A stretch of 64,000 bases of DNA from an uncultured Bacilli bacterium (GTDB taxonomy: Bacteria > Bacillota_I > Bacilli_A > RF39 > UBA660), in contig CANQRL010000006.1 of NCBI GenBank assembly GCA_947626275.1, positions 11,638 through 75,637 of the forward strand, written 5' to 3'. The position numbers were made by a program, and so were the translations under genes. The notes below the pieces were generated by a model. That model did no database searches. It was not told where the DNA came from and saw nothing but the letters and a program-made list of their open reading frames with translations. Each line of letters starts with the position of its first letter. Positions within the stretch are counted from its first letter, which is position 1. Positions 60,854 through 62,857 of this stretch are shown here, one piece after another.

Positions 60854-62857
60854 ATGAATAAAAAAGCAGTTAAAAAGAACGCATATTCATATATATTTTT
60901 ATTCATTGTTATATTAGCCATGATGTGGTTCATTAATGGATTAAACACGAAAGTAAATACGTTATCCTATAGTGAATTCATTCAAGCTATGGAAAGTGGA
61001 AAATTAGAAGAAGTAACTATTACACCAAACAATAATGCGGGTGTATATGAATTAACAGGAACAATGGAAGGATATGCTAAAAATGAATCTTTCTATGCTA
61101 AGGCACCACTTACTGATGCAACAATGAAAGAGCTTTATGCTGGAAGAGAAGAATATTCTTATGAAATTTCAACAGATAAAGATCCACAATCAAGCATTTT
61201 ATTAGCCTTGTTGGTAAATGTTTTACCACTTGTTTTATTGGTTGTCATTGGGGTATATTTCATTTCTAAGCAAATGGGAAGCGCTAACAAATCTATGGAT
61301 TTTGGAAAGAGTAGAGCTCGTTTAAATGACGATCGAAAGAAAGTTACCTTCGATGATGTCGCAGGATTAACCGAAGAAAAAGAAGAGGTACAGGAATTAA
61401 TTGAATTCTTGAAAGCTCCAAAGAAATTTCAAAAAATGGGAGCTAGAATTCCAAAAGGAGTTCTTCTAGTAGGTCCTCCAGGAACCGGAAAGACATTACT
61501 TGCTCGTGCTGTTGCCGGAGAAGCTAATGTTCCATTTTACTATATTAGTGGTTCTGACTTCGTAGAGTTATTCGTCGGAGTAGGAGCTTCTCGTGTAAGA
61601 GATATGTTTAAACAAGCAAAACACAATGCACCATGTCTTATCTTTATCGATGAGATTGATGCAGTTGGACGTCAAAGAGGTGCTGGTTTAGGTGGTGGAC
61701 ACGATGAACGGGAACAAACATTGAACCAATTACTTACCGAGATGGATGGTTTTGGAGAAAACGAAGGAATTATCGTTATTGCTGCAACAAATAGACCAGA
61801 TGTCTTAGATCCAGCCTTATTACGTCCAGGACGTTTTGATAGGCAGGTAACTGTTAATTTACCAGACGTTCGTGGAAGAGAAGAAATTTTACAAGTACAT
61901 GCGAAAGGAAAAACGTTTGCCAAAGGTGTAAAATTAGAAAATATTGCGAAGAGAACCGTTGGTTTTAGTGGAGCTGATCTTGAAAACTTATTAAATGAGG
62001 CTGCTCTTCTTACGGTTCGTCGTAACAAGCCTGCTATCACAATGGCTGAGATTGATGAAGCTCATGACCGTGTTTTAATGGGACCTGCTAAGGTTACCAA
62101 GAAGTATACGGAAAAAGAAAAGAAAATTGTTGCCTATCATGAAGCTGGGCACGCTGTTGTTGGTATCAAATTAGAGGGTGCAAACGAAGTACAAAAAATC
62201 ACGATTATTCCACGTGGAACAGCCGGTGGTTATAACTTAATGTTGCCAAAAGAAGAGACTTTCTTAGAGACGAAAAATGAGTTATTAGAAACCATTAGTG
62301 GTTTACTAGGAGGTCGTGTTGCGGAAGAAATCGTATTTAATGAGGTAACAACAGGAGCCCATAATGACTTTGAAAAAGCAACTAAGATTGCGCGTGCGAT
62401 GGTTACGGAATATGGTATGAGTGATTTAGGACCTGTTCAATTTGAGCAAAGAGAATCTAGTGTTTTCTTAGGAAGAGATTATAATAAGAGTCGAAACTTC
62501 TCTAGCCAAGTTGCTTTTGAGATTGACCAAGAACAACGAAAAATTATCAACGAATGTTATGAGAAAACGAAGAAAATTATTGCTGAAAATCGTGAGTTAT
62601 TAGATTTAATTGCGAATACGTTATTAGAATACGAAACAATCACGAAGGAGCAAATTGAGTATCTTGTAGAACATGGTTGTATGCCAGATGAGGATACAGA
62701 AGTAGATCATAGTGATTTTAAAGAAGCTAGCTTAGAGGATTTAACAACGGATGAATTAAGAGAAATTGCGAAAGAAAGACATGTTCGTGGTTATACAAAG
62801 ATGGACCGTGAAGAGCTATTAGATGAGTTAAATAAAAAAGAAGAGGATAATGATTAA
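60854..62857 (+). CDS. ftsH: ATP-dependent Zn metalloprotease FtsH with extra C-terminal Rho_N-like domain
   Basis: Two TMs, [33 protein letters not shown]; tail [33 protein letters not shown]. Confidence 0.97.
62206..62221. promoter_or_regulatory. parS site 3 inside ftsH
   Basis: TATTCCACGTGGAACA, 15/16 to TGTTCCACGTGGAACA. Confidence 0.65.

What the first reader, a model, noticed from the sequence alone, without database searches (positions are those of the whole stretch)
62732..62832. FtsH carries a C-terminal Rho_N-like (helix-extended-helix) domain
Seen: after the protease domain and an acidic linker, the protein ends [33 protein letters not shown]. Known: this fits the Rho termination factor N-terminal pattern (L..lt..ELreiAke.gi.gys.l.K.eL), a small nucleic-acid or protein-docking module that is not part of canonical FtsH. 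Inference: a membrane AAA+ protease with a built-in nucleic-acid/ribosome-binding or substrate-selection module.
Basis: partly seen in the sequence, partly recalled or inferred. Interest (0 to 1): 0.62.

Follow-up and report, generated by a model that had tools for sequence, protein, structure and literature searches.

The report
FtsH protease with tethered HeH tail
The only FtsH membrane protease of this small gut bacterium ends in a small, folded two-helix domain of the Rho-N/SAP type on a flexible linker, and ribosomal proteins S2 and L20 of the same genome end in the same domain; the tail is real, conserved and unstudied, and what it binds is still unknown.

Summary
FtsH (window 60854-62857, 667 aa) is a complete FtsH. 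After an acidic linker of about 18 residues it ends in a Pfam Rho_N match (residues 627-663; 25.6 bits in the whole protein, 30.6 bits alone; cut-off 24.9).

AlphaFold2 predicts a confident helix-extended loop-helix on a low-confidence linker. The nearest solved folds are SAP domains and the Rho N-terminal bundle.

The tail is not peculiar to this assembly:
- At least 60 of 101 genomes sampled in the order have it.
- At least 285 species genomes of uncultured gut and rumen Bacilli have it.
- It is under purifying selection and forms one clade.

New here: exactly three proteins in this genome carry the module, namely FtsH, S2 and L20, each at the extreme C-terminus. Rho itself is absent from the whole order sample.

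My best reading (about 0.4) is a tethered nucleic-acid-binding head, probably for RNA, that keeps the protease near translating ribosomes. Binding was not tested. DNA tethering, protein docking and a passive cap remain open.

The architecture is recorded by automatic annotation, but I found no paper on it. I class it as a new variant of a known kind, of moderate interest.

The parts
60854..62857 (+). ftsH gene, 667 aa plus stop; the only FtsH in the genome
   Evidence: ORF listed. TIGR01241 scores 834.8 bits against a cut-off of 600. Pfam finds FtsH_ext 13-95, AAA 203-335, AAA_lid_3 359-402 and Peptidase_M41 419-602. phmmer against all ORFs of the genome finds no second copy, and Walker A GPPGTGKT and the zinc motif HEAGH are intact.
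60854..62674 (+). Canonical FtsH body (residues 1-607): two predicted membrane helices, AAA+ module and M41 protease; the last helix is 598-607
   Evidence: Domain hits. The AlphaFold2 full-length model has helices at 3-30 and 115-146, and the last body helix at 598-607.
62675..62728 (+). Acidic flexible linker (residues 608-625, [19 protein letters not shown])
   Evidence: pLDDT is about 47 and no secondary structure is predicted for 608-626. The acidic pattern D17, D19, E21, D23 is at least 90% conserved among close relatives. More distant family members have a shorter linker.
62729..62833 (+). HeH / Rho_N module (residues 626-660): helix 632-641, extended loop 642-651 ([10 protein letters not shown]), helix 652-666
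   Evidence: Pfam Rho_N at 627-663, 25.6 and 30.6 bits. The AlphaFold2 model of the tail alone has mean pLDDT 84.4, with helices at model residues 11-20 and 31-44, which are FtsH 632-641 and 652-665. Foldseek returns SAP domains and the Rho N-terminal domain as best hits. Basic residues R636, K640, R642, R645, K649 and R652 are conserved in 86-100% of 28 FtsH tails.
62834..62857 (+). Short acidic C-terminal end (KKEEDND) and TAA stop
   Evidence: Sequence. This end varies in length and sequence among relatives.

Best explanation
The single, housekeeping FtsH of this genome has gained an accessory domain. After the M41 protease domain comes an acidic, flexible linker of about 18 residues, followed by a folded helix-extended loop-helix (HeH) head of about 35 residues of the Rho_N/SAP type. 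An FtsH hexamer would therefore carry six such heads hanging into the cytoplasm below the protease ring (an inference from known FtsH architecture).

The head keeps a conserved stripe of Lys/Arg in helix 1, the loop and the start of helix 2. I think it most likely binds nucleic acid, with RNA on or near ribosomes more probable than DNA. That would hold the protease close to sites of translation and membrane insertion, where its substrates arise.

The same module ends ribosomal proteins S2 and L20 in the same genome, and Rho itself is absent. Here the module is therefore a free-standing, reusable tether and not a remnant of Rho.

Shown: the domain exists, is predicted to fold, is conserved, is under purifying selection, was acquired once in this family, and sits on S2, L20 and FtsH. 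Inferred: nucleic-acid binding, the RNA or ribosome target, and the effect on where the protease sits.
For: Domain and fold:
- Rho_N scores above the Pfam cut-off.
- The two-helix model is confident on a low-confidence linker.
- The best structural neighbours are the DNA-binding SAP domain of FAN1 (TM 0.69-0.78, rmsd about 1 A, 30% identity), the Rho N-terminal domain (1a8v, 1pv4, 9ff7) and the Hcc-1 SAP domain (TM 0.80/0.68).

Conservation:
- At least 60 of 101 genomes in the order sample have an FtsH with the full tail.
- dN/dS is 0.08-0.58.
- FtsH tails form one clade, 28 of 29 tips, support 0.87.

Conserved basic positions: R636 and K640 in 100% of tails, R642 in 86%, R645 in 100%, K649 in 96%, R652 in 89%. 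Four of these positions are also basic in the S2 and L20 tails.

Link to the ribosome:
- Exactly three ORFs in the genome carry the module: S2, L20 and FtsH.
- The same trio is present in all 27 relatives examined.
- S2 and L20 tails from the same genome are more alike than those from different genomes (0.654 against 0.607; 0 of 5000 permutations reached this value).

Precedents:
- The C-terminal 40-aa Rho-N of Arabidopsis RHON1 follows an acidic stretch and shifts 16S and 23S rRNA fragments in gel assays (PMC3458557).
- The Rho N-terminal helix bundle is described as positively charged and as helping RNA loading (PMC11347177).
- FtsH is already linked to the YidC insertion machinery in quality control (PMC7618853).
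Against: - No binding was or could be tested here.
- In this particular genome the 35-residue core is net -5. The family mean is +0.64, with a range of -5 to +5. It also sits between an acidic linker and an acidic end, which is not typical of a strong nucleic-acid binder.
- FtsH tails show little or no same-genome co-variation with the S2 tails (0.527 against 0.519, p 0.17) or the L20 tails (0.487 against 0.472, p 0.025), so a shared partner is not demonstrated.
- Foldseek E-values are all 0.96 or higher because the query is so short.
- Some SAP/HeH domains bind proteins, not nucleic acid, for example SLX4 SAP with MUS81 (abstract of PMC13171448).
- One genus in the family (6 sampled genomes) has the S2 and L20 tails, but no FtsH tail was detected, so the FtsH tail is dispensable.
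Confidence: 0.4

Rival explanations
1. The HeH head is a protein-docking module. It would recruit an adaptor, a class of substrates, or a common hub protein that also receives the S2 and L20 tails, in the way the LEM domain binds BAF or the SLX4 SAP domain binds MUS81. It would not bind nucleic acid.
For: - The HeH/SAP fold is used for protein binding in some systems (abstract of PMC13171448).
- This genome's tail is net acidic at -5.
- The loop motif G-Y-S/T-x-M is conserved in all three carriers, as expected for a shared docking surface.
- FtsH activity is usually steered by adaptors and partner proteins (established knowledge; HflK/C and YidC in PMC7618853).
Against: - No candidate partner was identified.
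- No gene is conserved next to ftsH that could encode one. Upstream is tilS; downstream is a convergent ORF with no significant family match.
- The conserved surface residues are mainly Lys/Arg, which suits phosphate contacts at least as well.
Confidence: 0.25
2. The head binds DNA, as a classical SAP domain does. It would tie the membrane protease (and, through S2 and L20, ribosomes) to the AT-rich nucleoid, giving a membrane-nucleoid tether.
For: - The best structural matches are the DNA-contacting SAP domain of FAN1 and the Hcc-1 SAP domain.
- The L20 tail also gives a sub-threshold Pfam SAP match (20.9 bits).
- Related HeH arrays occur on an SNF2-type helicase and on proteins that match the SAP and HeH/LEM profiles.
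- The genome is 34% G+C.
Against: - The module sits on two ribosomal proteins, whose natural surroundings are RNA.
- The only Rho-N tail tested in the papers I found, RHON1, binds RNA.
- The tail of this genome is net acidic.
Confidence: 0.2
3. The tail has no specific ligand. It would be a small stable cap that arrived by domain shuffling from the S2 or L20 tails and persists because it protects the free C-terminus from proteolysis, or is simply nearly neutral.
For: - The module is promiscuous. 2905 representative proteins match at E <= 0.001, many with 3-8 tandem copies on unrelated proteins.
- One genus in the family shows no detectable FtsH tail.
- The linker length and the acidic end vary.
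Against: - Selection on the 35-residue core is clearly purifying (dN/dS 0.13 for the closest pair).
- Surface lysines and arginines, not only core hydrophobic residues, are kept in 86-100% of tails.
- The tail has been inherited as a single clade across dozens of genera.
Confidence: 0.1

Closest known systems
Canonical bacterial FtsH (TIGR01241; for example the E. coli, B. subtilis and Thermus enzymes)
   Same: Full architecture: two N-terminal membrane helices flanking an extracytoplasmic domain, an AAA+ module with Walker A GPPGTGKT, and an M41 protease with HEAGH. TIGR01241 scores 834.8 bits against a cut-off of 600. The gene follows tilS, as in many Firmicutes (the synteny statement is from general knowledge).
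   Different: The TIGR01241 profile ends at residue 601. The further 66 residues (linker plus HeH head) have no counterpart in that model.
N-terminal helix bundle of transcription terminator Rho (Pfam Rho_N, PF07498)
   Same: Sequence-profile match above the cut-off. The fold is a helix-extended loop-helix, and Rho structures 1a8v, 1pv4 and 9ff7 are among the best Foldseek hits.
   Different: The position is C-terminal, not N-terminal. It is not followed by the Rho OB-fold or ATPase. Rho_RNA_bind scores above its cut-off in 0 of 101 genomes of the order, and TIGR00767 finds only the two ribosomal tails in this genome. The protein is therefore not a Rho.
Arabidopsis RHON1 (C-terminal Rho-N domain; Stoppel et al. 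2012, PMC3458557)
   Same: A Rho-N module of about 40 residues at the extreme C-terminus, preceded by a strongly acidic stretch. In RHON1 this piece alone binds RNA, including 16S and 23S rRNA fragments.
   Different: RHON1 is a soluble chloroplast partner of RNase E, not a protease. There is no homology outside the module. RNA binding of the FtsH tail is untested.
L20/unknown-domain fusion protein (NCBIfam NF011109, PRK14537)
   Same: The FtsH tail gives a weak match to the C-terminal part of this model (positions 184-227 of 232; E 0.02, 14.6 bits, far below the cut-off of 187). This genome's own L20 carries the same module.
   Different: That model describes a ribosomal protein, and its added domain is still named 'unknown'. 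It says nothing about FtsH.
Eukaryotic SAP domains (FAN1, Hcc-1, Ku70, SLX4)
   Same: Same small fold. FAN1 SAP aligns over 36-41 residues at rmsd 0.9-1.4 A with 27-31% identity. Hcc-1 SAP gives TM 0.80/0.68.
   Different: Foldseek E-values are not significant for so short a query. The Pfam SAP model does not reach its cut-off on the tails. The host proteins and biology are unrelated.

Membership tests
FtsH (TIGR01241, ATP-dependent zinc metalloprotease) | Whole-protein score above the curated equivalog cut-off | tested here: met
   834.8 bits against a cut-off of 600, covering residues 16-601.
FtsH (TIGR01241, ATP-dependent zinc metalloprotease) | AAA+ Walker A motif and M41 zinc-binding HExxH motif intact | tested here: met
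   GPPGTGKT and HEAGH read directly from the translation. AAA at 160.3 bits and Peptidase_M41 at 244.8 bits.
FtsH (TIGR01241, ATP-dependent zinc metalloprotease) | N-terminal membrane anchor with two helices flanking an extracytoplasmic domain | tested here: met
   FtsH_ext at residues 13-95. Long helices at 3-30 and 115-146 in the AlphaFold2 model. No dedicated membrane-helix predictor was run.
Pfam Rho_N (PF07498) / HeH-SAP-LEM fold | Profile score at or above the gathering cut-off (24.9 bits) | tested here: met
   25.6 bits in the full protein and 30.6 bits for the tail alone; 30.6 bits in the six-frame genome search.
Pfam Rho_N (PF07498) / HeH-SAP-LEM fold | Two helices joined by an extended loop, folding as an independent unit | tested here: met
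   AlphaFold2 model of the tail alone: mean pLDDT 84.4, helices at 632-641 and 652-665. The same elements appear in the full-length model behind a low-confidence linker. This is a prediction only.
Pfam Rho_N (PF07498) / HeH-SAP-LEM fold | Structural similarity to solved HeH/SAP domains | tested here: inconclusive
   Most of the best-ranked hits are SAP domains or the Rho N-terminal domain, with TM 0.55-0.80 normalised to the query, but every E-value is 0.96 or higher because the query has only 46 residues.
Pfam Rho_N (PF07498) / HeH-SAP-LEM fold | Binds nucleic acid (or a defined protein partner) | not testable with these tools
   Indirect evidence only: conserved Lys/Arg positions and the RHON1 precedent.
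Transcription termination factor Rho (TIGR00767) | Rho OB-fold RNA-binding domain and RecA-type ATPase after the N-terminal bundle | tested here: not met
   TIGR00767 matches only model positions 3-57, in the S2 and L20 tails, at about 15 bits against a cut-off of 509. PF07497 scores above its cut-off in 0 of 101 genomes of the order, while the controls ring in 9 of 14.

The most novel reading that the evidence does not exclude
The HeH tail is a shared 'address tag'. In this Rho-less, genome-reduced lineage the same module was placed on a small-subunit protein (S2), a large-subunit protein (L20) and the sole membrane AAA+ protease. All three would then dock to one common ligand, either an RNA element or a hub protein. 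Ribosomes would be physically coupled to FtsH, giving a hard-wired form of co-translational quality control that other bacteria achieve, if at all, through YidC/SecYEG contacts.
Probability: 0.15. Interest if true: 0.7.

Novelty: new variant of a known kind. Interest (0 to 1): 0.45.

Why it matters
FtsH is the universal membrane-bound AAA+ protease. How it finds substrates and how it is positioned relative to the translation and insertion machinery is still poorly understood (review PMC7618853).

A natural FtsH variant with a built-in tether offers a simple experimental handle, for three reasons. It is conserved across at least 285 species genomes of uncultured gut and rumen bacteria. The same module sits on two ribosomal proteins. 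And the tail is a soluble 40-60-residue piece that can be expressed and tested for RNA, DNA, ribosome or protein binding.

If it does bind ribosomes or RNA, it would show a direct physical link between protein synthesis and membrane proteolysis. It would also give a function to the widespread Rho_N tails that databases still describe as an 'unknown domain'. If it binds nothing, it is a harmless decoration and only the annotation needs a note.

Tried and rejected
1. Search of representatives with the FtsH-tail profile. The best 150 hits were FtsH C-terminal fragments from short contigs and unrelated proteins with 3-8 tandem HeH copies. Clustering at 50% identity hides the full-length FtsH proteins, so this gave no count of independent FtsH-HeH lineages. 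Pfam on ten of the long hits showed only Rho_N/SAP/HeH arrays, one SNF2 helicase and one DUF4912 protein.

2. Test for co-variation between the FtsH tail and the ribosomal tails as a sign of a common partner. It was not significant for S2 (p 0.17) and weak for L20 (p 0.025). I do not use it as support.

3. Charge argument. This genome's tail core is net -5, which at first looked like evidence against nucleic-acid binding. Across 28 genomes the FtsH core ranges from -5 to +5, with a mean of +0.64, so this genome sits at the extreme.

4. Gene conversion between adjacent rplT and rpsB as the cause of S2-L20 tail similarity. Identity is the same whether the genes are adjacent (0.652) or not (0.662), so adjacency does not explain it.

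5. The idea that the tail replaces missing HflK/C partners. Four Band_7/SPFH frames are present in the genome, so I dropped it.

6. Literature. Searches for FtsH with Rho_N, for PF07498, for helix-extended-helix with ribosomal protein, and for FtsH with SAP domain or C-terminal extension found no paper describing this fusion. The library lacks most subscription journals, so absence is not proof.

7. Naming the GTDB order and family. The tools give only coded names. Record titles say uncultured Bacilli, Tenericutes, Mollicutes or Erysipelotrichaceae MAGs, plus CAG:822 and CAG:451. I did not assign a formal taxon.

Full report
**The observation.** The ORF at window 60854-62857 (+ strand) encodes a 667-residue protein that ends ...[59 protein letters not shown]. 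Pfam finds FtsH_ext (13-95), AAA (203-335), AAA_lid_3 (359-402), Peptidase_M41 (419-602) and Rho_N (PF07498) at 627-663. Rho_N scores 25.6 bits in the whole protein and 30.6 bits (E 3.2e-7) for the last 61 residues alone, against a gathering cut-off of 24.9. NCBIfam calls the protein FtsH (TIGR01241, 834.8 bits, cut-off 600), and that model ends at residue 601.

**Is it a folded domain?** I ran an AlphaFold2 model of the full protein from 61 aligned relatives.
- The mean pLDDT is only 69, because the alignment is shallow.
- A low-confidence stretch with no secondary structure spans 608-626 (pLDDT about 47).
- Two helices follow, at 632-641 and 652-666, with pLDDT about 82.

The last 46 residues, modelled alone with 42 aligned tails, give a mean pLDDT of 84.4. 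Twenty-six residues are above 90, and the same helices are separated by a ten-residue extended loop. Foldseek against the PDB returns these as best hits:
- the SAP domain of FAN1 (36-41 columns, rmsd 0.9-1.4 A, 27-31% identity, TM 0.63-0.78 normalised to the query);
- the Rho N-terminal domain (1a8v, 1pv4, 9ff7, 8q3n);
- the Hcc-1 SAP domain (TM 0.80/0.68).

All E-values are 0.96 or higher, as expected for so short a query. This supports the kind of fold but does not prove it.

**Is it peculiar to this assembly?** It is not.
- A search with residues 560-667 found 1228 proteins at E <= 0.001. Most of the best 120 are about 660 residues long and already carry PF07498 in the precomputed domain list. 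Their tails read (S/T)LxDL(T/S)xxELKxLAKEKGIKGYSKMxKEELIxxL.
- In 101 genomes sampled from the window's order (67 genera, 0.7-1.6 Mb), at least 60 have an FtsH-sized frame that matches the whole tail profile. One genus with six sampled genomes shows only the two ribosomal tails.
The records are uncultured gut and rumen MAGs labelled Bacilli, Tenericutes, Mollicutes or Erysipelotrichaceae, plus 'Firmicutes bacterium CAG:822' and 'Clostridium sp. CAG:451'.
- In samples of 400 genomes each from the class and the phylum, FtsH-sized frames with the tail lie almost entirely in the window's own family. There is one example in each of two other families, and their linkers differ.
- The 35-codon core is under purifying selection. 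pN is well below pS in all 28 pairs, and dN/dS is 0.13 for the same-genus pair.
- In a tree of 84 tails, the FtsH tails form one group of 29 tips that contains all 28 FtsH tails (support 0.87). This points to a single acquisition followed by vertical descent.

**What else carries the module.**
- A six-frame search of the window's own 1.40-Mb assembly (30 contigs, 92.6% complete) with PF07498 finds exactly three places.
- A more sensitive profile built from those three tails finds no fourth. The next best hit has E 0.84.
- The other two carriers are ribosomal protein S2 (Ribosomal_S2 at 9-223, a Lys/Glu-rich linker of about 85 residues, then Rho_N at 310-343) and ribosomal protein L20 (Ribosomal_L20 at 3-109, a linker, then Rho_N at 143-173).
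- In all three proteins the module is the very last element.
- I fetched the corresponding regions from 27 relatives. All 27 have the same trio, confirmed by BLASTP against the S2 and L20 cores.
- In 21 of the 28 genomes, rplT lies immediately upstream of rpsB.
- HeH tails on L20-sized and S2-sized frames are widespread in other families of the class that lack the FtsH tail.
- The likely order of events is therefore ribosomal tails first and FtsH tail later. This is an inference.

**Rho.**
- The tails are the only trace of Rho.
- TIGR00767 finds nothing but the S2 and L20 tails in this genome.
- Rho_RNA_bind scores above its cut-off in 0 of 101 genomes of the order, while the control genomes ring in 9 of 14.
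- The protein is not a Rho and not a degraded Rho. 'Rho_N' is only the name of the profile that recognises this HeH module.
- That Rho is missing from small AT-rich genomes is known (PMC11347177).

**How the three tails compare.**
- The hydrophobic core and the G-Y-S/T-x-M loop are shared by all three.
- Basic residues are kept at core positions 11, 15, 17 and 27 in all three carriers. In FtsH these are R636, K640, R642 and R652.
- FtsH also keeps R645 (100%) and K649 (96%).
- S2 and L20 tails are intermixed in the tree.
- S2 and L20 tails are more alike within a genome than between genomes (0.654 against 0.607; 0 of 5000 permutations reached this). This holds whether or not the genes are adjacent.
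- That pattern suggests gene conversion, shared composition or a common constraint.
- FtsH tails do not clearly co-vary with the S2 tails (p 0.17) or the L20 tails (p 0.025).
- Net charge of the core averages +1.4 for S2, +1.75 for L20 and +0.64 for FtsH.
- This genome's FtsH core is -5, the most acidic value in the sampled range of -5 to +5.

**How it most likely works.**
- This is the only FtsH in the genome, and its catalytic motifs are intact. The tail therefore decorates the working enzyme.
- From the known architecture of FtsH, a hexamer with the protease ring farthest from the membrane, six heads on linkers of about 18 residues would hang into the cytoplasm. This is established knowledge applied here, not something I modelled.
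- I favour a nucleic-acid tether, with RNA more likely than DNA, on four grounds.
  - The fold family binds DNA or RNA in most characterised cases.
  - The conserved surface is a Lys/Arg stripe.
  - The closest architectural precedent, RHON1, has an acidic stretch followed by a C-terminal Rho-N of 40 residues, and that piece alone shifts 16S and 23S rRNA fragments (PMC3458557).
  - The other two carriers are ribosomal proteins.
- The effect would be to hold the protease close to translating, membrane-inserting ribosomes. FtsH is already known to cooperate with YidC there by an unresolved mechanism (PMC7618853).
- I put this reading at about 0.4.
- The rivals are protein docking (0.25), DNA or nucleoid tethering (0.2) and a ligand-less cap (0.1). 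None is excluded.
- No step after 'a folded, conserved HeH head on a flexible linker' has been shown.

**What is known and what is new.**
- The fusion is visible in automatic annotation. PF07498 is in the precomputed domain lists. NCBI has a model for an 'L20/unknown domain fusion protein' (NF011109), whose C-terminal part weakly matches this tail.
- HeH/Rho_N modules are promiscuous. 2905 representative proteins match the tail profile, many with 3-8 tandem copies.
- More than a dozen first-stage notes of this scan flagged the same FtsH tail in other genomes, and none shown had a follow-up.
- I found no paper that describes or tests an FtsH with this domain, or the S2, L20 and FtsH trio. The searchable library is incomplete.
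- I class the finding as a new variant of a known kind: a standard FtsH with a conserved accessory HeH tether.
- Interest is moderate. The feature is real, widespread in an uncultured lineage and easy to test, but its function is not established and domain-tail fusions of this module are common.

**Limits.**
- The genome samples are samples, and the match tables were cut at 150 rows. '60 of 101' is therefore a lower bound.
- Structures are predictions.
- Taxon names are coded in the tools.
- The same-genome similarity test cannot separate gene conversion from shared composition or a common constraint.

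Noticed in passing
G000:C13:35493-36527 (locus L001 574-1608, + strand): Ribosomal protein S2 (344 aa) has a Lys/Glu-rich linker of about 85 residues and then the same Rho_N/HeH module at its extreme C-terminus (Pfam Rho_N at 310-343, 37.5 bits). tsf follows. The tail was present in all 27 relatives examined.
   Followed up: yes
G000:C2:84635-85159 (locus L002 1495-2019, - strand): Ribosomal protein L20 (174 aa) ends in the same module (Pfam Rho_N at 143-173, 36.2 bits; sub-threshold SAP match). This is the architecture that NCBIfam NF011109 calls 'L20/unknown domain fusion protein'. 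L20-sized frames with this tail are widespread in other families of the class.
   Followed up: yes
Loci L084-L103 and L143 (relatives G005-G097): In 21 of 28 genomes, rplT lies immediately upstream of rpsB, so two HeH-tailed genes sit in tandem. S2 and L20 tails are sometimes nearly identical within a genome (for example G097, G091 and G047). The excess same-genome identity does not depend on adjacency.
   Followed up: partly
Whole genome G000 and 100 genomes of its order: No Rho gene. TIGR00767 finds only the two ribosomal tails in G000, and Rho_RNA_bind scores above its cut-off in 0 of 101 genomes.
   Followed up: yes
G000:C25:6902-7123, C1:21303-21524, C2:99155-99397, C2:67208-67381: Only four single S1-domain matches were found, in frames of 141, 714, 729 and 411 aa. 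No frame has several S1 repeats, so ribosomal protein S1 appears to be absent from this 92.6%-complete assembly. The long S2 tail near the mRNA exit could conceivably take over an mRNA-catching role; this was not tested.
   Followed up: no
window 62854-63687 (- strand): A convergent 277-aa ORF ends inside the ftsH stop region, so the two stop codons overlap at 62854-62857. It has no significant Pfam match (best is HEPN_AbiV at 20.2 bits, below the cut-off of 27.1). There is no room for an intergenic terminator between the two genes.
   Followed up: no
window 58090-59454 (+ strand): A 454-aa protein with an N-terminal hydrophobic segment and two Big_2 Ig-like domains (74.8 bits) lies between the ung-like gene (UDG, 57369-58019) and tilS (59525-60838).
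   Followed up: no
Proteins P0121, P0127, P0134, P0182, P0253 (representative library): Proteins from other organisms carry 3-8 tandem Rho_N/SAP/HeH modules. One is fused to an SNF2-type helicase and one to DUF4912. P0121 (792 aa) has eight copies.
   Followed up: partly
G000:C12:37873-38382, C1:229920-230459, C4:3337-3891, C9:3722-4279: Four Band_7/SPFH-domain frames are present in the genome. At the level of the domain family, that does not hold.
   Followed up: partly
L145 (G371:C16:34300-34800) and L144 (G105:C1:173700-174200): FtsH proteins of two other families in the class also end in a HeH module but with different linkers. G371 reads ...GKLAWWEKKKAARADHTTNTFTKEELEDYTVPQLREIAREKDLSGYSTLRKDELIDLILEANK. 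G105 has a very short linker. These may be independent acquisitions.
   Followed up: partly
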